DNA from: Minisyncoccia bacterium
GTDB taxonomy: Bacteria; Patescibacteriota; Minisyncoccia; UBA6257; JAAZHW01
NCBI GenBank assembly: GCA_049720475.1
Contig: JBNASH010000035.1
Span: forward strand, 20,015-84,014
DNA length: 64,000 bases
Reading direction: 5' to 3'
Every line of letters begins with the position of its first letter. The stretch's first letter is position 1. The translations under genes and the position numbers were made by a program. The notes beneath the pieces are model-generated. The model worked only from the letters and a program-made list of their open reading frames with translations, was not told the origin of the DNA and searched no databases. Positions 29,669-63,263 of this stretch are shown piece after piece.

Positions 29669-30004
29669 TTAATCTTTAATTTTATTCAACACTTCTTCTA
29701 TTTCAGCCGCTTTTTCTTCTGATAAATCATAATGGATAATCAATTTGGGAACAGGATGCATTTTCAATTTTTTATTTAATAATTGCTGAAGTCGATAGAT
29801 ATTCATTTCAAAAAATTTTTGAATTTCTTCAGTTATTTTGGGATAAACACTGATAAAAACTTGTGCATGGGACAAATCTTTTGAAACACAAACCCTTGTC
29901 ACTGTAATTAAAAAATCAGGAGGTAATAACATCTCTTCTTTTAAAATCTCAGAAAAAACTTCTTTGATTAAACTATTAACTTGTGCTAAACGATAAGATG
30001 TCAT
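29669..30004 (-). CDS. rbfA: Ribosome-binding factor A
   Basis: 111 aa with the RbfA KH-like pattern (ITVTRVCVSKDLSHAQVFISV). Confidence 0.7.
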   Translation of the reverse strand: MTSYRLAQVNSLIKEVFSEILKEEMLLPPDFLITVTRVCVSKDLSHAQVFISVYPKITEEIQKFFEMNIYRLQQLLNKKLKMHPVPKLIIHYDLSEEKAAEIEEVLNKIKD

Positions 30005-31317
30005 AGTTGGTCAATTATTTTTTTTATTAAATCTAAAATTTCATCTAAAGTTTTTTTATCTTTTGCTTCGATATTCAAACGCAAAAGCATTGGTTCGGTT
30101 TGGGAAGTCCTTAGGTTAAAATGAAAATTTTTTGCCCAGATGGTTATGCCATCATTTTTGATTACCTTCGCTCCTTTTTTAAATCGTTTTTCTAAACTCT
30201 TAAAAATTAATTGAGTATAACTGTTATTTTTTATTCGAAAATTCATCTCGGGCAAAATAATATTTTTTTGATACTTCATTACCAAATCCTCTATTTTTTC
30301 TTTGTGTTGGGCAAAAAATTTTAAAAGCATCAGAAAGGAAAAAATTCCCGAATCCGCAAAAAAGAAAGGCTTCCAATAATAATGACCTGATTTTTCAATG
30401 CCCAGAAGAGCTTTATGTTTTTTCATCGCCTTTTTGAAAAAACTATGCCCCGCCATCGAAAAAAAGACTCGAAAACTATATTTTTTTGCTAAATCCATTA
30501 ATACTTTAGATGAACGATAATCTAAAATAATTGTTTTTGGCTTTTGATTTTTTACTGCTTCTAATAAAAATATGCCCACAATATCGCCCAAAACCATGTT
30601 CCCATTGGTATCAAACAAATATAACCGATCACCATCTTCATCAAATTGGATGATAAAATCGTTTTTTCTTTTTTTGATTAATCGCTTGCTAACTGGGCGG
30701 TGGATAAATTGAATGGATAAAGATAATTCTTTTTTTATTTTTTCTAAAATTAATTGAGTGCTTTTAGGACAACAAACTAAAATTTTTTTATTTTGAATTT
30801 TAGATAAAAAGTTTTTTATTTTACTCTGGGATAAAAGAAATTTAGCATAATCACCAACAAAATTTTTTCTAATGATTTTTCCTTTTGTTAAACCGATAGT
30901 AATTGGTTGATTCAAAAAATCTAAATTTTTCTTGAGCCACTCACCAGTTATTGCTTCAAGATTTTGATTATAAATTTTAAAACCAGTATATTTTTTTTCT
31001 AAATGCGATCCGGTGACGATAATTCCTAAATCAAATTTTTTTGTTTTAAGAAGATAATAAAGCATGGGCGTTGTAATAATGCCAGCATCGATTACTTCAA
31101 CATTATTTTGGATTAAACCTTGAGCCAAACCTTTAATAATCGCCAACCCATTTGACTTGGCGTCACGCCCAATAACAATTTTTGGTCTTTTTTTATTTAA
31201 GTCTATAATTTTTGGCAAATAATACCCTAATCGCCAAGCAACATCTGGATTAATATCCGTAGGAAAAATTCCTCTAATATCGTAAGCTAACAAAATTTTC
31301 TTTTTAATTGAATCCAT
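30001..31317 (-). CDS. Alpha-D-phosphohexomutase family protein (phosphogluco-, phosphomanno- or phosphoglucosamine-mutase-like, divergent active-site loop)
   Basis: YDIRG start motif. Active-site Ser in TGSHL (a variant of TASHNP). Metal-binding DEDGDR loop. Confidence 0.6.
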   Translation of the reverse strand: MDSIKKKILLAYDIRGIFPTDINPDVAWRLGYYLPKIIDLNKKRPKIVIGRDAKSNGLAIIKGLAQGLIQNNVEVIDAGIITTPMLYYLLKTKKFDLGIIVTGSHLEKKYTGFKIYNQNLEAITGEWLKKNLDFLNQPITIGLTKGKIIRKNFVGDYAKFLLSQSKIKNFLSKIQNKKILVCCPKSTQLILEKIKKELSLSIQFIHRPVSKRLIKKRKNDFIIQFDEDGDRLYLFDTNGNMVLGDIVGIFLLEAVKNQKPKTIILDYRSSKVLMDLAKKYSFRVFFSMAGHSFFKKAMKKHKALLGIEKSGHYYWKPFFFADSGIFSFLMLLKFFAQHKEKIEDLVMKYQKNIILPEMNFRIKNNSYTQLIFKSLEKRFKKGAKVIKNDGITIWAKNFHFNLRTSQTEPMLLRLNIEAKDKKTLDEILDLIKKIIDQL

Positions 31318-56725: not shown

Positions 56726-56760
56726 TATCCCACACTTTGGTGGGACATTTTGTTTTTTAT
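56726..56760 (+). terminator. Rho-independent terminator after tRNA-Ser
   Basis: TCCCAC-loop-GTGGGA followed by CATTTTGTTTTTTATTTT. Confidence 0.5.
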
Positions 56761-57407
56761 TTTCTACATTTCACAGCGGTTTTTTTATCAAAATTAATAT
56801 CGAAATCATCAAAAACTGGTTTTAGCCGATTCTGAAAAACATAAAGCAGAGGAATCATTATTTCCCGCATTTGCGGATGAGAGGCTGGACTACAACGTAA
56901 AGCAAAAATGTGTCGCCATTCACGCAGATTTGCCGTAACAAAAACTTCGGTTTTTAAAGAATTAGGCAAAACACTTCTAGCCTCTTCGGGTTTTAAACCA
57001 TGTTTTCTTAAATTAAAATAAAATTCTTCAGCGGCCTTCATTGCCTTTTCCCAAATTTTGTATTCTTTTGTTCCTTCTTGCAAAAAACAGGGTTTAATAA
57101 AAATCAGCTCCCCTTTTTTCTGATAATCACAATAACGCGTTGATTCCTGAGTATAACTCGCTATTCGATGTCTGACTAATTCATGGGATACGCCCCGATC
57201 GCAAATGATAATAACAGATATTTCCACGTGTTCCAAAACACTTTCGTGGCCCATTTTAATCAATCTTCTTACAAAATCTTCAGCTGATTCCGGAGTAATT
57301 CTGTCTTCGCTTTTGTGCGCAATTCTACCGGCTCGTTCTATTTTTTTCAAAATAGATTCCCTCTCTAAATAAGTGACAATTTCAAAAGACGGCTCAATAA
57401 TTTGCAT
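56757..57407 (-). CDS. thyX: Flavin-dependent thymidylate synthase ThyX
   Basis: ThyX motif RHRIASYTQESTRY (RHRxxSxxxxSxR). Confidence 0.85.
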   Translation of the reverse strand: MQIIEPSFEIVTYLERESILKKIERAGRIAHKSEDRITPESAEDFVRRLIKMGHESVLEHVEISVIIICDRGVSHELVRHRIASYTQESTRYCDYQKKGELIFIKPCFLQEGTKEYKIWEKAMKAAEEFYFNLRKHGLKPEEARSVLPNSLKTEVFVTANLREWRHIFALRCSPASHPQMREIMIPLLYVFQNRLKPVFDDFDINFDKKTAVKCRK

Positions 57408-57459: not shown

Positions 57460-59337
57460 TTATTCTTTGACAAGTTTTTTCAAAATTTCTTGAAGCTCTT
57501 CTTCAGAAAAGAAATTAATGGTAATCTTTCCCTTATTGCCGCGTCTTTTCACTTCAACTTTTGTGCCAAAAATTTCTTCTAATTTTCTTTCAATCTCTTT
57601 TTCCAAAGCATCACCCAAATCGCTGACTGAAACTTCTTGATGTTTTTGAACAAACTGACCAAGAGGCATTTCTAAAATACGCCTTGTTAAAATTTCAGTT
57701 TCTCTCACCGTTAATTTTCGCGATAAAATTTCACCAAGCAATGCTCTTTGCTTTTCCGGATTTTGAATAGTCAAAAGTAAACGAGCATGTGACTCAGTAA
57801 TTTTTCCTTCTTCCAAAGCTCTTTGCGCTTCAGAAGGTAATTCTAAAAGCCGCAACATATTCGCCACATAAGCGCGACTTTTTCCAATACGTTCCGCAAT
57901 CTCTCTTTGTGGTAAACCAAATTCATCAGCTAATTTGGCAAAACCCCTAGCAGTTTCTAAAGGATTTAAATCTGCTCTTTGAATATTTTCAATAATGGCA
58001 GCTTCTAATTTTTGCCTCTCTTCCAAAGACGGCCGAACAATCGCCGGCACTCTTTCCAATCCCAATAACTGCGCCGCCCGCAATCGTCTTTCACCAGCAA
58101 TTAATTGATACTCCACTCTTCTTCCAAAGTCCGTTTCTTTCTCAATGCGCGAAACAATCAGTGGTTGTAAAATACCATATTCACGAATAGAATCAGCTAA
58201 TTCTTTAAGTGATTCATCATCAAAATTTTTTCGTGGCTGATAAGGATTGGGTTTAATTTTATCAACTTCAATTAAATATACTGCCTCCCGAATCGGACCC
58301 AAATCTTCTTCAATTAAATTCTTCATTTCTTCTTTTTGTTCTGTTTTTTCTTCAATCTTTTCTTCAGTCTTTGGCTCATTAAAAATTATTTCTTTTTCAT
58401 TTCTTTCGCTCTTTAATTCTGGCCATAAAATTTCTGGATAAATACCTTGTTTAATCAAATTGCTAATCGCTTCCTGAACTTTTGGTTTGTCTTCGGGATA
58501 AGTCACGCCAAACCATTTATCTTCAGTTGGCAAAACTGTTACCTGAGCTCGTTTTTCGCGCAATAATTGACCAATAATTTCAGAAATATAAAATTCGCTT
58601 TTCTCTGGATTTTGAAGATTTAATAAAAATTTATAAAAACGCGTTTCCAATTCATAAAAGATACTGGGCGTAAAACCAAAAAAATTCATTGAAACAATTT
58701 CATCGCCCGTTAATTTCAACCAGGTATCAAATTCCTCAAATTTAATTCCATCTTCGAATTTTTGAATTTTTGTTCGTTCTTTTAAATCAATTAAATATCC
58801 TTCGGGTGAAATTTCACAAACGCCGCGCGAGACAGCACCGTAATCTGAAAGAGTGTTTTTCAATTGATAACCAATCATTAAATAGTGGTACAAACCTTCT
58901 TCATCACTTAAATCTTTTAACGCATCGGCCATTTTAATAAAAGCATCGCGACCATAAAAATCATCGGAATTAATAATAGCAAAGTTAGAGTCAATAACAT
59001 TTTGGCAAAGCAAAATTGCATGGCCCGTTCCCCAAGGTTTCGTTCGGTTGGCCGACAAAGAAAACCATGATGGTAATCCTTTATTTAAATCTTGAAAAAC
59101 ATAAGAAACTTTAAAAATTTTTTCAGCTTGATTACCAATCTTTTCTTTAAAAATTTCTTCTATATCTTTGCGAATCACAAAAACAACATGATTAAAACCA
59201 GCCTGTTTGGCATCATAAAGAGAATAGTCAATGATTAATTCTCCATTAGGACCAACTGGATCAACTTGTTTTAATCCGCCATAGCGACTGCCCATTCCAG
59301 CCGCCAAAACTACCAATGTTAAATCTTTACTTTCCAT
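57460..59337 (-). CDS. parB: In-frame fusion: N-terminal sugar-phosphate nucleotidyltransferase domain (about 337 aa) plus a C-terminal complete ParB/Spo0J (about 288 aa). An internal ATG at 58326 would give a standalone ParB.
   Basis: N-terminal LAAGMGSRYGGLKQ ... KPWGTGHA (GlmU/RmlA/GalU-type). C-terminal IKPNPYQPRKNFD, GERRLRAA ParB box, HTH REIAERIGKSRAYVANMLRLL. Lys/Glu-rich linker with no stop codon. Confidence 0.7.
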   Translation of the reverse strand: MESKDLTLVVLAAGMGSRYGGLKQVDPVGPNGELIIDYSLYDAKQAGFNHVVFVIRKDIEEIFKEKIGNQAEKIFKVSYVFQDLNKGLPSWFSLSANRTKPWGTGHAILLCQNVIDSNFAIINSDDFYGRDAFIKMADALKDLSDEEGLYHYLMIGYQLKNTLSDYGAVSRGVCEISPEGYLIDLKERTKIQKFEDGIKFEEFDTWLKLTGDEIVSMNFFGFTPSIFYELETRFYKFLLNLQNPEKSEFYISEIIGQLLREKRAQVTVLPTEDKWFGVTYPEDKPKVQEAISNLIKQGIYPEILWPELKSERNEKEIIFNEPKTEEKIEEKTEQKEEMKNLIEEDLGPIREAVYLIEVDKIKPNPYQPRKNFDDESLKELADSIREYGILQPLIVSRIEKETDFGRRVEYQLIAGERRLRAAQLLGLERVPAIVRPSLEERQKLEAAIIENIQRADLNPLETARGFAKLADEFGLPQREIAERIGKSRAYVANMLRLLELPSEAQRALEEGKITESHARLLLTIQNPEKQRALLGEILSRKLTVRETEILTRRILEMPLGQFVQKHQEVSVSDLGDALEKEIERKLEEIFGTKVEVKRRGNKGKITINFFSEEELQEILKKLVKE

Positions 59338-59454
59338 AACTTTTATTTTATTAAAGCAAAAAAATAAACAATTGACAAGAAAATTTTTTAAAATTAAAAT
59401 TGAATTGTTGCTACTTGAAAAAATTTTAGAATACGCTAAATTTTTATAAAGATT

Positions 59455-59540
59455 GCCCAGGTGGCGGAATTGGCATACGCGGAGGACTTAAAATCCTCTG
59501 TCTTTCAAAAGACTTGTGGGTTCGAGTCCCACCCTGGGCA
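59455..59540 (+). tRNA. tRNA-Leu (anticodon TAA), class II
   Basis: Acceptor GCCCAGG/CCTGGGC, anticodon stem GAGGA/TCCTC, loop CTTAAAA, variable arm TGTCTTTCAAAAGACT, T-arm GTGGGTTCGAGTCCCAC. Confidence 0.85.
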
Positions 59541-59740
59541 CAAATGAGCGAAGCGAATTTGGGCCCAGGGAGAAAGCCAACTGCTTGGCTTTCGTTGGGA
59601 CGAGAAAGCCCGCAGCGATGGGCGAGTTTGAGCGAAGCGAAAGGCGAGCACCGCGAGGGGCGGCCTGCGAGAATCTGCCCTGCCTGCCGGTAGGCAGGCG
59701 TCAGGCAGATTACTTGTAGGCGAGTCCCACCCTGGGCACA
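59541..59740 (+). other. GC-rich, hairpin-dense roughly 175-bp insert ending in a second copy (59722-59740) of the tRNA-Leu 3' end GAGTCCCACCCTGGGCACA. Candidate integration scar, miniature element or tRNA-linked structured RNA.
   Basis: 19-nt perfect direct repeat. Local GC far above its surroundings. Internal repeat TGAGCGAAGCGAA at 59545 and 59629. Hairpins GAAAGCCAA/TTGGCTTTC and ATCTGCC-CT-GCCTGCC-GGTA-GGCAGGC-GTCA-GGCAGAT. Also contains a copy of the acceptor 5' strand GCCCAGG at 59561. Confidence 0.5.
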
Positions 59741-59790
59741 TTAGAATCTATAATTTAGAAAGTAGAATTTAGAAGTTAGAATTTGGGATT
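59741..59790. repeat. Degenerate tandem repeats of (T)TAGAAT(T)T, about 6 copies
   Basis: Visible periodicity immediately after the duplicated tRNA end. Confidence 0.5.
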
Positions 59791-59835: not shown

Positions 59836-59863
59836 AAATAAAAAAGGCGGCTACGCCGCCTTT
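59836..59863 (-). terminator. Rho-independent terminator of the 93-aa membrane-protein gene
   Basis: GGCGGC-TAC-GCCGCC followed on the minus strand by TTTTTTTATTT. Confidence 0.55.
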
Positions 59864-60143
59864 AGCTCAAAATTAAAATTATAATCACCACTAAAATAAC
59901 AACTTCTACGACAACAGTCACCGCTGGCCACCGTTCATAGCAATACCGGTGAAGTTCTTTCAATTTTCTAAAAACAAATGTTACTATTGAACAAATAACA
60001 TCAACTATAAACTGAAAAATAGCCTTAAACATTTTTCCCAATGCCCTATTTACTTCCTTGGTTTTGCCAAAAATAATGGCAAAACCATAAACTAAAATAA
60101 TCGGCAATAGGAAAAATGATAATAAATTTATCAGCTGTTGCAT
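59862..60143 (-). CDS. Small hypothetical membrane protein (93 aa, 2-3 TM)
   Basis: Strong SD AAGGAGGAT 4 nt upstream of the ATG. Hydrophobic helices. Confidence 0.5.
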   Translation of the reverse strand: MQQLINLLSFFLLPIILVYGFAIIFGKTKEVNRALGKMFKAIFQFIVDVICSIVTFVFRKLKELHRYCYERWPAVTVVVEVVILVVIIILILS

Positions 60144-60272: not shown

Positions 60273-61658
60273 TTATGCGTAGTCTTGAGCTTTCAACACG
60301 ATCTTTTTACCTCTCTTCAATTCAACATCATACGCGTTTTTAGAATCAACCCTCTCTGTTTTTTGGGGGGTAATTTTGTAAACATACCACCCCCACTGTC
60401 TACCTTCTCCAGCACAATAATCAATTTGACTTTTAACCACCACTACTGCTACTTTCTTTCTGTAATCGATGGCCTTATCAATTACCTGAGCCTGAACATA
60501 AGGAATGTCGGAATTCGTGTAAGTGGGAATATTCAGAGGATAACCAGCCAAAATATAACTTGGCATAGTGGCGTTACGAGTTTCGGCTTTGAGAATCTTC
60601 TGAATTTCAGCTTCCACATGTCTCTTAAACTCTTCCTTTTCTTCAAGAGAAATTGATGTCGAATTATCTTCTCTCTCGGCTACTGAGAATGTATGCTTGA
60701 GAGAGAAATTATAATGGGAATTAATCAACACTACTTCAACCCGATCTTTGGTAATTTTAGATATGCGCACATCGTTGAAATTATAAGCTGGTCTGTCAGC
60801 ATGTTGATCATAAGCATCCCGCCATTTGTAATACGTCTTTGCTCTTTGACCATCCCTGAACACTATAACATCGTGACCATATTCAGAACCGCCGGAACCA
60901 TAATAGAACCATCTGGAAACAAGAAAAACAACTACCCTATGCTCGAGATCATAAGCTATTTTTACAATTTCATTATCAATTTCCTGAACCACTGCCCAAA
61001 ATTCTGGAAGAATCGAAAGAACAGGAGTTAGATCGAGCAAATTCAACTGCTCCATTATCTTTTTCTGCTCTTTCAAACATCGAATCTGATTTTCGATCTT
61101 TTCAAGTTGTTTCTGCAAATCTTCTTTCTGCTCATTCTGTTCTAAAAGTGCAGGGTATTTTTTTTGGATCTTTTTTAGAACTTCTACCTGAGCTTTTTTA
61201 AAATCTTCCGATGAAATTTCATATTGCCGATCACCGCAGAATGTCAGCCATTTTTCTAGTTCTAGAAACGTTATAACTCTTTCACCCTCGTGACAACCAC
61301 CACAAGTAGTAGGACGCTTGAAACTCCCGAAACCACCACATCCGTTGTAAATAGAAAGATTTTTAAGGCGAGACCCGATAATAATTTTCTCATCATCGGG
61401 CAGTTTTTTCATAGCCTGCAGACACTTTTCAAGCAACGCAAGTCGACTTTCTCTCCGACTATCTTTATATTTTTGCTGCCATTGAACAATTTCTTCTTGA
61501 AGGCTAGCGGGGAATCGTTTTTCAATTAGAATATTTCCCAAATTTTCAACCACATCGAAGTTTTCGAATTTTCTCAACTGTTCCTCAACTTTTTTGTACT
61601 GTGACTCGAGCTGAACAATTTTTTCCGTATAATCTTTTAAAGTTTTTAATTCGGCCAT
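60273..61658 (-). CDS. Hypothetical protein, 461 aa, with an N-terminal coiled coil and a Cys cluster (NGCGGFGSFKRPTTCGGCHEGE)
   Basis: Long ORF with strong SD AAGGAGGT. Codon usage and GC appear slightly atypical relative to neighbouring housekeeping genes (by eye). No recognisable family. Confidence 0.5.
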   Translation of the reverse strand: MAELKTLKDYTEKIVQLESQYKKVEEQLRKFENFDVVENLGNILIEKRFPASLQEEIVQWQQKYKDSRRESRLALLEKCLQAMKKLPDDEKIIIGSRLKNLSIYNGCGGFGSFKRPTTCGGCHEGERVITFLELEKWLTFCGDRQYEISSEDFKKAQVEVLKKIQKKYPALLEQNEQKEDLQKQLEKIENQIRCLKEQKKIMEQLNLLDLTPVLSILPEFWAVVQEIDNEIVKIAYDLEHRVVVFLVSRWFYYGSGGSEYGHDVIVFRDGQRAKTYYKWRDAYDQHADRPAYNFNDVRISKITKDRVEVVLINSHYNFSLKHTFSVAEREDNSTSISLEEKEEFKRHVEAEIQKILKAETRNATMPSYILAGYPLNIPTYTNSDIPYVQAQVIDKAIDYRKKVAVVVVKSQIDYCAGEGRQWGWYVYKITPQKTERVDSKNAYDVELKRGKKIVLKAQDYA

Positions 61659-62324: not shown

Positions 62325-63263
62325 ATGCTTGTTATCAAAGAGCAAAATATTAAAACATTTTTAGAAAAACTATCGGAAAAATACCAAGTGTTTGATGTTC
62401 GGAATGATTTATTGCCTTTTAAACAATATTTTCTTCCACCTGAAGAAAAAATTTTTGAAAGACGAAAAAATAAAATAAAGGTGGCAGGAAAACCAAAGCC
62501 ATTGGTGCTTTTTGGATTAAATTTTTACGAACTTGAGGCCTTAAATCAACTGGATGAAATAATGGCGAAACCGATTGAAGATTATTTTTACTTTCAACGC
62601 CGCAATCAAAGTATTGTTATTGGTTTAATTGAAGAAGATATCGATAGTTTGCCAGGTGGCGAGATTGTTTTTCAAAAAATTAACAGCGATTCCTATCGCG
62701 TCTGGCTCAAAAGTAAAAAAGAAGAAAAATGGTTGAAAAAATACAAAAAAATTTTTGAAGAAGTAGAAAATATTGAGATTAGCTCTCCAATTTCACAAAA
62801 AAATGACGAATGGCATTTAGAAATGCGGCAATTACTCTTAGATCCCGAAAAATTAGCTAAAGCTGTTGAATGGTCAGAAAATCATCCGATTTGGGATGAA
62901 TTGGCAAAAACTTGTTTGGGTTGCGGCATTTGTACTTTTATGTGTCCTTTATGCTACTGTTTTTCCTGGGAAGATAATAAAACGCTTGATGGCAAAAGTT
63001 ATCGGATTCGTAAATGGACCGCTTGTACTTTAAACGATTTTGCTCTTGTTGCTGGCGGTCATAATTTCCGAAAAGAATTAAAACAACGCTATTATAATTG
63101 GTTTTATCATAAATTCGTCCGCGGTTATTATGAATGGGGAAAATCTCTTTGCGTTGGCTGCGGTCGTTGCCATAAAAATTGCCCAGCGCAAATTGATATT
63201 TTAAAAGTTTTAAAAACTATCTTAGCTGATTATGAAAAATCTCTATCTCCCAAAAATAGTTAA
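62325..63263 (+). CDS. Fe-S cluster protein (two Cys clusters), AsrA/HydB-like electron-transfer subunit
   Basis: CLGCGICTFMCPLCYC and CVGCGRCHKNCP ferredoxin-type motifs. Followed by an overlapping PyrK-like gene. Confidence 0.5.
   Translation: MLVIKEQNIKTFLEKLSEKYQVFDVRNDLLPFKQYFLPPEEKIFERRKNKIKVAGKPKPLVLFGLNFYELEALNQLDEIMAKPIEDYFYFQRRNQSIVIGLIEEDIDSLPGGEIVFQKINSDSYRVWLKSKKEEKWLKKYKKIFEEVENIEISSPISQKNDEWHLEMRQLLLDPEKLAKAVEWSENHPIWDELAKTCLGCGICTFMCPLCYCFSWEDNKTLDGKSYRIRKWTACTLNDFALVAGGHNFRKELKQRYYNWFYHKFVRGYYEWGKSLCVGCGRCHKNCPAQIDILKVLKTILADYEKSLSPKNS

What the first reader, a model, noticed from the sequence alone, without database searches (positions are those of the whole stretch)
57460..59337. 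Orphan ParB fused in frame to a sugar-nucleotidyltransferase domain
A single 625-aa ORF joins a GlmU/RmlA-type nucleotidyltransferase domain (LAAGMGSRYGG...KQ, KPWGTGHA) to a complete ParB/Spo0J. The ParB part has the ParB box GERRLRAA, which is the CTP-binding motif of ParB, and an HTH. The join is a Lys/Glu-rich linker with no stop codon. An internal ATG (minus-strand coordinate 58326) sits exactly where a normal ParB N-terminus would begin (MKNLIEEDLGPIRE ... IKPNPYQPRK), so ParB may also be made on its own. No parA/soj gene precedes it. An NTP-transferase-ParB architecture is not one I know, and ParB is itself an NTP (CTP)-dependent switch.
Basis: partly seen in the sequence, partly recalled or inferred. 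Interest (0 to 1): 0.65.

Follow-up and report, generated by a model that had tools for sequence, protein, structure and literature searches.

The report
Sugar nucleotidyltransferase fused to chromosomal ParB
In one small clade of ultra-small (CPR/Minisyncoccia) bacteria, the chromosome-organising protein ParB has lost its ParA-binding tip and carries an apparently active sugar-nucleotide-making enzyme at the end of its flexible N-terminal tail; the fusion is real and conserved, but its purpose is unproven.

Summary
Window 57460-59337 (-) is one uninterrupted 625-codon ORF. Residues 1-305 are an RmlA/GalU-fold sugar-1-phosphate nucleotidyltransferase of the uncharacterised PDB 3pnn family. Residues 306-345 are an acidic disordered linker. 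Residues 346-625 are a complete ParB (CTPase N-domain, HTH, C-terminal dimeriser).

It is not an assembly artefact. At least 13 protein clusters from independent JGI, ENA, Logan and NCBI assemblies carry the same fusion, with linkers of about 35-125 residues that are always in frame. dN/dS is 0.09-0.13 for the transferase, 0.04-0.07 for ParB and about 0.67 for the linker.

The ParB halves form one clade nested among ParA-less stand-alone ParBs at the same locus (tRNA-Leu upstream). Those relatives carry an N-terminal NPFIINFDD peptide on an acidic tail. More distant relatives carry the canonical LGRGL ParA-binding peptide, and the one whose locus was read has an adjacent parA. The enzyme therefore occupies ParB's usual effector position.

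No parA or parS occurs in the 64 kb. Among 1.84 billion representative proteins, only this one cluster has the architecture, and no paper found describes it. I classify it as a new variant of a known kind. How the two activities are coupled is inferred, not shown.

The parts
57460..59337 (-). Whole fusion gene: 625 codons plus the TAA stop at 57460-57462.
   Evidence: ORF list and sequence. Identical to NCBI MGB9847951.1.
58423..59337 (-). N-terminal sugar-1-phosphate nucleotidyltransferase module (aa 1-305) of the 3pnn family. Catalytic-type motifs: G14-x-G16-S-R18, K23-Q24, Q82, G103-T-G105, D125-D126.
   Evidence: PF00483 at 6e-11. PDB 3pnn at E=2e-77. Foldseek 3pnn TM 0.92 and RmlA about 0.68. 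All 43 family-invariant residues are present. Motifs align to RmlA. pLDDT is 93-98. dN/dS is 0.09-0.13.
58303..58422 (-). Acidic, disordered linker (aa 306-345). It matches in character the acidic N-terminal tail of related stand-alone ParBs.
   Evidence: pLDDT 39-60. Length varies from about 35 to about 125 aa between orthologues and is always in frame. dN/dS is about 0.67. Stand-alone tails have similar acidic composition.
58324..58326 (-).
   Evidence: Present in the window, but no ATG/GTG/TTG occurs in the equivalent 45 codons of L001 and L005. Met is not conserved in the alignment.
57979..58302 (-). ParB N-terminal CTPase domain (aa 346-453). Box I NPYQPRK (Q367), Box II GERRLRA (E416, R417, R418), Box III ENIQR (aa 450-454).
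   Evidence: PF02195 at 1.4e-31. Aligns to Spo0J 1vz0 at 3e-51 and to CDP/CTPgammaS-bound ParB structures. Motifs are invariant or nearly invariant in orthologues.
57676..57972 (-). ParB helix-turn-helix DNA-binding domain (aa 456-554), with recognition helix GKSRAYVANMLRLL.
   Evidence: PF17762 at 3e-34. Aligned to the T. thermophilus and H. pylori ParB HTH. Best structural match is parS-bound Caulobacter ParB 6t1f, TM 0.87.
57463..57600 (-). ParB C-terminal dimerisation domain (aa 580-625).
   Evidence: PF23552 at 35.4 bits against a cut-off of 23.8. pLDDT is 88-92.
59350..59378 (-). Conserved promoter-like block TTGTCA-17 nt-(TGc)TTTAAT, ending 12 nt before ATG1. This implies a very short leader. 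Its -35 box overlaps the -35 box of a divergent plus-strand promoter-like site facing tRNA-Leu.
   Evidence: The blocks are conserved in the window, L001 and L005 although synonymous sites are saturated. The plus-strand TTGACA-17-TAAAAT site at 59372-59400 was reported by the scan. Promoter function is inferred.

Best explanation
This is a genuine, selectively maintained two-module protein. It arose once in a narrow Minisyncoccia/Paceibacterota (CPR) clade.

Origin. A 3pnn-family sugar-1-phosphate nucleotidyltransferase gene became joined to the 5' end of the chromosomal parB gene, which was already ParA-less. The enzyme replaced the short N-terminal effector peptide. The pre-existing acidic disordered tail of ParB was kept and now serves as the linker.

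Proposed mechanism:
1. Shown by sequence and fold: the C-terminal module has every element of a CTP-gated ParB clamp. These are Box I Q367, GERR E416/R417/R418, ENIQR, the HTH and the C-terminal dimeriser.
2. Inferred: this module loads on a centromere-like site, closes its N-gate on CTP and spreads. Without ParA and without the LG(R/K)GL peptide, it acts in origin organisation (for example SMC loading) rather than ParA-driven transport.
3. Shown: the N-terminal module keeps all 43 family-invariant residues and evolves under strong purifying selection.
4. Inferred: it is therefore still an active enzyme, most likely using a pyrimidine NTP (UTP or dTTP), because Gln82 aligns with RmlA Gln83. 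It would make an NDP-sugar from a sugar-1-phosphate.
5. Inferred: because the enzyme hangs from a 35-125-residue tether at exactly the place where ParB normally displays its partner-binding peptide, each ParB-DNA complex displays many copies of it. This would co-localise and stoichiometrically couple NDP-sugar synthesis (or the enzyme's own partners or oligomerisation) with the origin-proximal nucleoprotein complex.

The protein is made as one polypeptide from ATG1, behind a conserved short-leader promoter.
For: Real and conserved:
- 13 clusters at 90% identity (73-99% identical to the window, 623-711 aa) come from JGI, ENA, Logan and NCBI assemblies, and all carry NTP_transferase + ParB_N + HTH_ParB + ParB_C.
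- Linker length varies by about 90 residues without ever breaking the frame.

Selection on both halves:
- dN/dS is 0.09-0.13 for the transferase, 0.04-0.07 for ParB and 0.66-0.68 for the linker, at dS of about 0.9-2.

Single origin at the ancestral parB locus:
- The ParB halves are monophyletic (NJ bootstrap 67%) inside stand-alone Paceibacterota ParBs.
- Both types have tRNA-Leu(taa) immediately upstream and rny a few kb away.

A swap series at the N-terminus:
- 22 of the 35 nearest ParB representatives start with LG(R/K)GLxSLIP.
- One such relative, P0120, has parA directly upstream.
- The closest stand-alone relatives instead start with NPF(I/V)IN(F/H)(D/N)D followed by an acidic tail, and have no adjacent parA.
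- The fusion clade has neither peptide and carries the enzyme instead.

Module integrity:
- Pfam, NCBIfam and PDB matches.
- AlphaFold2 pLDDT is 93-98 for the transferase and 80-96 for ParB, with a disordered linker and pTM 0.55, consistent with two independent globular modules.
- Foldseek: 3pnn TM 0.92, ParB-parS 6t1f TM 0.87, RmlA about 0.68.
- All family-invariant residues are kept, and motifs align to RmlA G11-R16, K26-Q27, Q83 and D111.

Chromosomal housekeeping context:
- The window holds rpoB, rpoC, fusA, ribosomal proteins, tRNA synthetases, tgt and thyX.
- A phosphoglucomutase/phosphomannomutase at 30001-31317 could supply sugar-1-phosphate.

ATG1 is used:
- Promoter-like blocks just upstream are conserved in three genomes.
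Against: - No activity was measured. CTP binding, DNA loading, transferase activity and substrate are all inferred from conservation.
- No canonical parS (up to 3 mismatches) and no recurrent GC-containing palindrome occurs in the 64-kb window or in L001 and L002. The DNA target is unknown.
- Genome-wide absence of parA could not be tested. Only 64 kb of this genome and about 20-kb flanks of relatives were visible.
- pTM of 0.55 gives no evidence that the two modules contact each other, so functional coupling beyond tethering is speculative.
- The clade is narrow: one of 185,579 species representatives and one of 1.84 billion 50%-identity representatives. A nearly neutral fusion that simply persists cannot be excluded.
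Confidence: 0.5

Rival explanations
1. Tolerated but functionally uncoupled fusion. Two independently useful proteins became joined by accident (loss of a stop and start next to parB). The long flexible tail lets both work as before, and the fusion brings no benefit beyond co-expression.
For: The linker evolves almost neutrally (dN/dS about 0.67) and is disordered. pTM is 0.55, with no sign of inter-module packing. The 3pnn-family transferase fuses promiscuously with unrelated domains: APH kinase, GH127, XRE-HTH, epimerase and a tandem copy. The distribution is very narrow.
Against: The fusion has survived divergence to saturated synonymous sites (dS 0.9-2) in every one of the 13 clusters. No re-splitting is seen, although a single stop plus start in the fast-evolving linker would be enough. 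The enzyme sits exactly where relatives carry a conserved effector peptide, LGRGL or NPFIINFDD. This suggests replacement of a function, not a random join.
Confidence: 0.25
2. Regulatory or sensor module. The transferase domain acts mainly as a ligand-binding sensor (UTP/dTTP, sugar-1-phosphate or NDP-sugar) or as an oligomerisation or anchoring module. It would tune ParB loading, spreading or localisation according to envelope-precursor supply, rather than serving bulk metabolism.
For: It occupies the effector end of the ParB tail. From my own knowledge, nucleotide-sugar-sensing regulators of the cell cycle exist elsewhere: UgtP in B. subtilis and OpgH in E. coli. Other ParB-CTPase folds are fused to ligand-sensing CBS domains (bioRxiv 10.1101/2025.10.10.680097). 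Other members of this transferase family are fused to XRE-type HTH DNA-binding domains (P0077).
Against: Every family-invariant catalytic-type residue is retained, and dN/dS matches that of a working enzyme. Nothing indicates a pseudo-enzyme. No predicted contact with the ParB CTPase domain is seen.
Confidence: 0.13
3. Two products from one ORF. ParB is also, or mainly, made alone, either by internal initiation at Met338 or another linker codon, or by proteolytic cleavage of the linker.
For: The window has an in-frame ATG at 58326 just before the ParB core. Shine-Dalgarno use is low in this genome (5 of 44 ORFs), so the lack of an SD does not argue against internal initiation. NCBI's pipeline annotates some orthologues as 323- or 277-aa ParBs. 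A disordered linker is protease-accessible.
Against: L001 and L005 have no ATG, GTG or TTG in the 45 codons before the ParB core. Met338 is absent from most orthologues. The NCBI short calls start at ATT codons inside an open 648-codon frame, so they are a start-picking artefact. A free ParB would lack any N-terminal effector peptide.
Confidence: 0.1
4. Assembly or sequencing artefact that joins two ordinary neighbouring genes.
For: None found.
Against: The same open frame occurs in independent assemblies from at least four data sources and several species-level lineages, with differing linker lengths. In stand-alone relatives no transferase gene lies next to parB.
Confidence: 0.01

Closest known systems
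Canonical chromosomal ParB/Spo0J (T. thermophilus Spo0J 1vz0, B. subtilis Spo0J 6sdk, C. crescentus ParB 6t1f, M. xanthus ParB 7bnk)
   Same: The C-terminal 280 residues are a complete ParB: the CTPase N-domain with Box I, II and III, the HTH, and the C-terminal dimeriser. Matches are E=3e-51 to 1vz0 and TM 0.87 to parS-bound 6t1f.
   Different: It has no LG(R/K)GL ParA-activating peptide, no adjacent parA and no canonical parS within 64 kb. A 305-residue enzyme is attached at the N-terminus.
Noc, the nucleoid occlusion paralogue of ParB
   Same: Noc is a precedent for a ParB whose ParA-binding N-terminal peptide was exchanged for a different effector (a membrane-targeting helix), giving a ParA-independent function. 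That description of Noc is from my own knowledge. Noc structures are among the top fold matches.
   Different: It is not a Noc. TIGR04285 scores 221 bits against a cut-off of 315. The recognition helix keeps the ParB-type Arg (GKSR...). The lineage is CPR, not Bacillota. The N-terminal effector is a globular enzyme, not an amphipathic helix.
PDB 3pnn, P. gingivalis W83 'conserved domain protein / glycosyltransferase' (structural genomics, function untested), and behind it RmlA, GalU and YngB sugar-1-phosphate nucleotidyltransferases
   Same: Residues 7-303 align end to end with 3pnn (E=2e-77, 46% identity, TM 0.92). It shares the RmlA-like fold and the GxG(S/T)R, KQ, Gln and Asp motifs.
   Different: The 3pnn family has no assigned substrate. 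The protein fails the equivalog thresholds for RmlA, GlmU and AglF/GalU. In this clade alone the family member is fused to ParB.
ParB-CTPase-fold fusion proteins surveyed by Kaljevic et al. 2025 (bioRxiv 10.1101/2025.10.10.680097): fusions to HNH, methyltransferases, DUF3850, CBS and others
   Same: Both are lineage-specific fusions of a ParB CTPase module to another functional domain in an orphan (ParA-less) context.
   Different: The partners highlighted there are joined mostly to the isolated CTPase fold, often on mobile elements. Here a complete chromosomal ParB, in a core housekeeping region, is fused to a sugar-nucleotide enzyme. NTP_transferase/PF00483 appears neither in the main text nor in the one supplementary file held.
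Stand-alone orphan ParBs of Paceibacterota (e.g. P0020-P0041)
   Same: They are 62-71% identical over the ParB core, sit at the same locus (tRNA-Leu(taa) upstream), have the same acidic disordered N-terminal tail and have no adjacent parA.
   Different: Their tail ends in a conserved peptide, NPF(I/V)IN(F/H)(D/N)D. In the fusion clade this is replaced by the transferase.

Membership tests
ParB/Spo0J chromosomal partition protein (CTP-dependent DNA clamp) | ParB N-terminal domain with the CTP-binding and hydrolysis motifs: Box I QPR, Box II GERRxRA, Box III ENxQR | tested here: met
   PF02195 scores 108.8 bits. NPYQPRK, GERRLRA and ENIQR are present and conserved in orthologues. They align to CDP/CTPgammaS-bound ParB structures.
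ParB/Spo0J chromosomal partition protein (CTP-dependent DNA clamp) | ParB-type HTH DNA-binding domain and C-terminal dimerisation domain | tested here: met
   PF17762 scores 117.6 bits. PF23552 scores 35.4 bits against a cut-off of 23.8. TIGR00180 scores 184 bits against a cut-off of 58.45.
ParB/Spo0J chromosomal partition protein (CTP-dependent DNA clamp) | N-terminal LG(R/K)GL peptide that activates ParA | tested here: not met
   The motif is absent from all 13 fusion proteins. It is present in 22 of the 35 nearest ParB representatives and in P0120.
ParB/Spo0J chromosomal partition protein (CTP-dependent DNA clamp) | Partner parA/soj gene in the same operon | tested here: not met
   No Walker A KGGxGK(T/S) occurs in six frames of the 64 kb. 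No ParA/CbiA/MinD family appears in 47 ORFs. None is adjacent in L001 or L005. The positive control P0120 has parA upstream. The rest of the genome was not visible.
ParB/Spo0J chromosomal partition protein (CTP-dependent DNA clamp) | parS centromere sites (TGTTNCACGTGAAACA) near the gene | tested here: inconclusive
   There are zero matches with up to 3 mismatches in the window, L001 and L002, and no conserved GC-containing palindrome. Only part of the genome was searched, and the site may differ in this lineage.
ParB/Spo0J chromosomal partition protein (CTP-dependent DNA clamp) | CTP binding and hydrolysis, and parS-stimulated clamp closure | not testable with these tools
   This needs purified protein: DRaCALA, a CTPase assay and cysteine cross-linking.
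Noc (nucleoid occlusion protein) | Passes the TIGR04285 threshold and has an N-terminal membrane-targeting amphipathic helix | tested here: not met
   It scores 221 bits against a cut-off of 315. The N-terminus is a globular transferase.
Sugar-1-phosphate nucleotidyltransferase (Pfam NTP_transferase, RmlA/GalU/GlmU fold) | Family HMM above threshold and a Rossmann-like nucleotidyltransferase fold | tested here: met
   PF00483 scores 42.8 bits against a cut-off of 21.2. Foldseek hits RmlA at TM about 0.68 with E of 1e-14 to 1e-15, and UDP-glucose pyrophosphorylase 8b6d.
Sugar-1-phosphate nucleotidyltransferase (Pfam NTP_transferase, RmlA/GalU/GlmU fold) | Catalytic signature: GxG(T/S)R loop, catalytic Lys, base-specifying Gln, metal-binding Asp | tested here: met
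   G14, G16, S17, R18, K23, Q24, Q82 and D125/D126 are invariant in the fusion clade and in 32 family members. They align with RmlA G11-R16, K26-Q27, Q83 and D111.
Sugar-1-phosphate nucleotidyltransferase (Pfam NTP_transferase, RmlA/GalU/GlmU fold) | Membership of a characterised equivalog (RmlA, GlmU, GalU/AglF) | tested here: not met
   rmlA_long scores 22.3 against 320. Arch_glmU scores 41.9 against 292. AglF scores 27.1 against 400. The substrate is therefore unknown.
Sugar-1-phosphate nucleotidyltransferase (Pfam NTP_transferase, RmlA/GalU/GlmU fold) | Measured nucleotidyl transfer to a sugar-1-phosphate | not testable with these tools
   This needs an enzyme assay with panels of NTPs and sugar-1-phosphates.
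PDB 3pnn family (uncharacterised ~300-aa nucleotidyltransferases) | Full-length sequence and fold similarity to 3pnn, with the family-invariant residues | tested here: met
   E=2e-77 over aa 7-303. TM is 0.92 at 46% identity. All 43 invariant columns are shared.

The most novel reading that the evidence does not exclude
In ParA-less, ultra-small CPR cells the ParB nucleoprotein complex may have been repurposed as a scaffold or switch that links envelope-precursor (NDP-sugar) metabolism to chromosome organisation. The tethered transferase would either sense UTP/dTTP or sugar-phosphate supply and gate the ParB CTP clamp cycle, or anchor the origin region to the envelope-synthesis machinery. It would be the third state in an evolutionary series of exchangeable ParB N-terminal effectors: the LGRGL ParA peptide, then the NPFIINFDD peptide, then an enzyme.
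Probability: 0.13. Interest if true: 0.8.

Novelty: new variant of a known kind. Interest (0 to 1): 0.52.

Why it matters
ParB is the founding CTP-dependent molecular switch. How it works without ParA, and what its flexible N-terminal tail can be made to carry, are open questions.

This locus offers a natural series within one lineage. The same chromosomal ParB core ends in a ParA-activating peptide, in a new conserved short peptide, or in a whole metabolic enzyme. That makes the idea of the tail as an exchangeable effector arm directly testable with three related proteins.

If the enzyme is active while bound to the ParB-DNA complex, it would be a rare physical link between nucleotide-sugar metabolism and chromosome organisation, in organisms whose cell biology is almost unknown.

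There is also a practical point. Public annotation names these proteins only 'ParB family', or truncates them to 277-323 residues from ATT starts. Domain-architecture surveys are therefore likely to miss the fusion.

Tried and rejected
- Assembly artefact or missed stop. Rejected, because independent assemblies keep the frame with different linker lengths.
- Internal start at Met338. Not conserved. Shine-Dalgarno analysis is uninformative, because only 5 of 44 ORFs have an SD-like core.
- Fusion of two formerly adjacent genes. Rejected, because stand-alone relatives have no transferase gene next to parB; tRNA-Leu lies directly upstream.
- Recent horizontal transfer of the transferase half. The nearest stand-alone homologues (55-59% identity) sit in non-CPR contexts with TamB, HslUV and GH2. 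However, GC3 of the two halves is identical (0.243 against 0.246, genome mean 0.258). Any transfer is therefore old, and its origin remains open.
- Transferase as a MurU/AmgK-type MurNAc salvage enzyme. Not supported: there is no hit to such families, and P. gingivalis (the source of 3pnn) is reported to lack AmgK (PMC7670621).
- Canonical parS, or any shared palindrome, as the centromere. None found.
- The GC-rich element next to tRNA-Leu as a centromere. Its only 16-bp palindrome is not conserved in L002.
- Noc identity. Below threshold.
- Literature. '3PNN' gave no relevant paper. 'ParB' plus 'NTP_transferase' gave none. 'Patescibacteria' plus ParA/ParB gave nothing relevant.
- Other N-terminally extended CPR ParBs (up to 536 aa). 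They contain no extra Pfam domain, only long tails.
Full report
THE SEQUENCE. Window 57460-59337 (minus strand) is one ATG-to-TAA reading frame of 625 codons with no internal stop.

Pfam places NTP_transferase on residues 9-276 (42.8 bits, gathering score 21.2). It places ParB_N on 353-453, HTH_ParB on 456-554 and ParB_C on 580-622, all above threshold. NCBIfam gives parB_part 184 bits against a cut-off of 58.45. Noc and all nucleotidyltransferase equivalogs (RmlA, GlmU, AglF) fall far below their cut-offs.

IS THE FUSION REAL? A search of 5.8 billion clustered proteins returned 13 clusters that are 73-99% identical over the full length (623-711 aa). They come from JGI, ENA, Logan and NCBI data, and all have the same four Pfam domains. 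Their members sit on dozens of contigs.

In the alignment the two globular parts are well conserved. The joining segment differs in length by about 90 residues yet never breaks the frame.

I computed codon-level comparisons of the window gene with two orthologues read from DNA, L001 and L005. dN/dS is 0.09-0.13 for the transferase part, 0.04-0.07 for the ParB part and 0.66-0.68 for the linker. Synonymous divergence is 0.9-2.0. Both halves are therefore under strong purifying selection, and the join has survived long divergence. An assembly or sequencing artefact is excluded.

HOW WIDESPREAD IS IT? Among one genome for each of 185,579 species, only one other genome carries the full fusion: Candidatus Paceibacterota isolate STE_198, L005. 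In an exhaustive HMMER scan of 1.84 billion 50%-identity representatives, a single representative covers both halves (1361 bits). The next hits, at 373 bits or less, are single-domain proteins. This specific architecture is thus confined to one narrow clade.

The window protein is identical to NCBI MGB9847951.1, from a Minisyncoccia (CPR/Patescibacteria) MAG, where it is named only as a ParB family protein.

For the L005-type orthologues, NCBI records list ParB proteins of 323 or 277 residues. For the two that map onto L005 (P0287 and P0286), these begin at ATT codons inside the open 648-codon frame. This annotation habit hides the fusion.

THE ParB HALF. It matches T. thermophilus Spo0J (E=3e-51), H. 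pylori ParB and B. subtilis Spo0J along the N-domain and HTH.

The residues mutated in the M. xanthus ParB structures 7bnr (Q52A) and 7o0n (E93A) correspond, by motif and on my assignment, to Q367 in NPYQPRK and E416 in GERRLRA. Both are conserved across orthologues.

The AlphaFold2 model is confident for this half (pLDDT 80-96). It superposes best on parS-bound Caulobacter ParB, TM 0.87.

The genomic setting is chromosomal housekeeping: rpoB, rpoC, clpB, tgt, queH, fusA, rpsL, rpsG, several tRNA synthetases, tig, clpP and nusA.

ORPHAN STATUS AND THE N-TERMINAL SWAP. No ParA-type Walker A motif occurs in any frame of the 64 kb. No ParA, MinD or CbiA family was found in the 47 ORFs scanned. 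None flanks the orthologues.

The closest stand-alone ParBs (62-71% identical) are also without an adjacent parA. They lie at the same locus, immediately downstream of a divergent tRNA-Leu(taa), with rny a few kilobases away. They carry an acidic, low-complexity N-terminal tail of 60-150 residues. In 12 of 13 of them that tail begins with a conserved peptide, NPF(I/V)IN(F/H)(D/N)D.

More distant relatives start with the canonical ParA-activating peptide. Of the 35 nearest ParB representatives, 22 start with LG(R/K)GLxSLIP, also followed by a long tail. One of them, P0120, has parA directly upstream with an 11-nt overlap.

The fusion proteins have neither peptide. A neighbour-joining tree of the ParB cores places all fusion proteins in one clade (bootstrap 67%), nested within the NPF-peptide group.

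The simplest history is this. ParA and its peptide were lost. A new peptide took the tip of the tail. In one sub-lineage the tip was then replaced by a whole enzyme, and the existing acidic tail became the linker. A recent survey reports chromosomal parB in only 26 of 135 Paceibacterales species. It also reports that the ParA-binding motif tracks with a neighbouring parA (bioRxiv 10.1101/2025.10.10.680097).

THE TRANSFERASE HALF. Residues 7-303 align end to end with PDB 3pnn, a P. gingivalis structural-genomics protein of unknown function (E=2e-77). The model superposes on it with TM 0.92. The next fold neighbours are RmlA (TM about 0.68) and UDP-glucose pyrophosphorylases.

All 43 residues that are invariant in 32 family members are present in the window protein and in the other fusions.

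A profile alignment to E. coli RmlA pairs the following:
- G14-R18 with the G11-R16 loop.
- K23-Q24 with K26-Q27.
- Q82 with Q83, the pyrimidine-specifying residue.
- The D125/D126 motif (NSDD) with the RmlA motif containing D111.

I therefore predict an active enzyme that uses UTP or dTTP. The sugar is unknown. Nothing connects it to CTP.

The family is promiscuous in fusions: APH-type kinase, GH127 arabinofuranosidase, XRE-type HTH, epimerase and tandem copies. Its nearest stand-alone members (55-59% identity) lie in non-CPR genomes. The two halves have the same GC3, so any transfer is ancient. A phosphoglucomutase/phosphomannomutase and a GT4 glycosyltransferase in the window show that the organism handles sugar-1-phosphates and NDP-sugars.

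ONE PRODUCT OR TWO? Met338 is not conserved. L001 and L005 have no ATG, GTG or TTG anywhere in the 45 codons before the ParB core.

Upstream of ATG1, three genomes share the blocks TTGTCA, then 17 nt, then TGcTTTAAT, ending 12 nt before the start. This implies a very short leader. The -35 box overlaps the -35 box of a plus-strand promoter-like site facing tRNA-Leu.

AlphaFold2 gives two confident globular modules, a linker below pLDDT 50 and pTM 0.55. That is consistent with a tethered pair with no fixed mutual orientation. Proteolysis cannot be assessed here.

MOST LIKELY MECHANISM. Shown: this is a conserved single polypeptide with a complete ParB and a complete transferase, both under purifying selection, and the enzyme occupies the effector end of the ParB tail.

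Inferred: ParB still works as a CTP-gated clamp on an unidentified site. No canonical parS or shared palindrome was found in the available DNA. It would act without ParA. The transferase would be active, and loaded ParB would display many tethered enzyme copies on the origin-proximal complex.

Whether this localisation matters, whether the domain acts as a sensor or anchor, or whether the fusion is merely tolerated cannot be decided computationally. I give about 0.5, 0.13 and 0.25 respectively, 0.1 to a separate ParB product, and 0.01 to an artefact.

NOVELTY. No paper in the searchable library mentions this architecture. The dedicated survey of ParB-CTPase fusions does not mention NTP_transferase in its text or in the one supplementary file held. 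It is a new variant of a known kind: a canonical chromosomal ParB with an enzyme in place of its partner-binding peptide. It is narrowly distributed and of moderate interest. It would be of higher interest if functional coupling is shown.

Noticed in passing
window 59542-59741 (+), directly 3' of tRNA-Leu(taa) 59455-59541: A ~200-nt GC-rich element (about 62% GC in a 34% GC genome) ends in a 19-nt copy of the tRNA 3' end (CGAGTCCCACCCTGGGCAC). It folds very stably (-104.6 kcal/mol, z=-7.15). A 78-87% identical copy follows tRNA-Leu(taa) in L002 and L090, and part of one in L091, but it is absent from L001, L005 and L006. There is no Rfam match. It may be a small tRNA-targeting mobile element or an undescribed structured RNA.
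   Followed up: partly
L002 10001-10220 and proteins P0022-P0041: Stand-alone, ParA-less ParBs of Paceibacterota carry a conserved N-terminal short linear motif, NPF(I/V)IN(F/H)(D/N)D, on an acidic disordered tail. It sits in the position of the canonical LGRGL ParA-binding peptide. Its partner is unknown.
   Followed up: partly
L005 10001-11947 (JAQVHD010000008.1) and NCBI proteins MDD3614328.1, HOK20715.1, HON22080.1: NCBI annotation lists orthologues as 323- or 277-aa ParBs. For the two that map onto L005, the call starts at an ATT codon inside an uninterrupted 648-codon frame. The transferase half is left unannotated, which hides the fusion from architecture surveys.
   Followed up: yes
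window 56757-57407 (-): thyX (flavin-dependent thymidylate synthase) follows the fusion gene after 52 nt, with its own AAGGAGG and no terminator-like site between them. This order is conserved in L001 and L005. Stand-alone relatives instead have rpsF-ssb-rpsR after parB. A pyrimidine-metabolism neighbour next to a predicted UTP/dTTP-using enzyme may or may not be meaningful.
   Followed up: partly
proteins P0071, P0043, P0077, P0065, P0018 (homologues of the transferase half): The 3pnn-type transferase family is fused in other organisms to an APH-type kinase, a GH127 beta-L-arabinofuranosidase, an XRE-type HTH, an NAD-dependent epimerase, or a second copy of itself. This suggests a sugar-salvage nucleotidyltransferase of unknown specificity.
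   Followed up: partly
window 59372-59378: Overlapping divergent -35-like boxes (TTGACA on the plus strand, TTGTCA on the minus strand) sit between tRNA-Leu and the fusion gene. They are conserved in L001 and L005.
   Followed up: partly
whole window: Only 5 of 44 ORFs of at least 150 aa have a Shine-Dalgarno-like core upstream, against 5% of random windows. SD presence is therefore a poor guide to start sites in this genome.
   Followed up: no
window 60273-61658 (-) and 59862-60143 (-): A 461-aa ORF has no family assignment, only a sub-threshold SGNH hit. A 93-aa hydrophobic ORF lies upstream of the tRNA-Leu/fusion locus.
   Followed up: no
L001 12902-20055: A type I restriction-modification system (HsdR, HsdS, HsdM plus an RVT_3 gene) is inserted between thyX and the methyltransferase, relative to the window's gene order.
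   Followed up: no
window 62325-63263 (+); L001 4900-8547: A Fer4_22 iron-sulfur protein lies upstream of the locus in the window. In L001 the same gene is part of a NiFe-hydrogenase-like cluster: large and small subunits, an FAD/NAD subunit, and HypC nearby.
   Followed up: no
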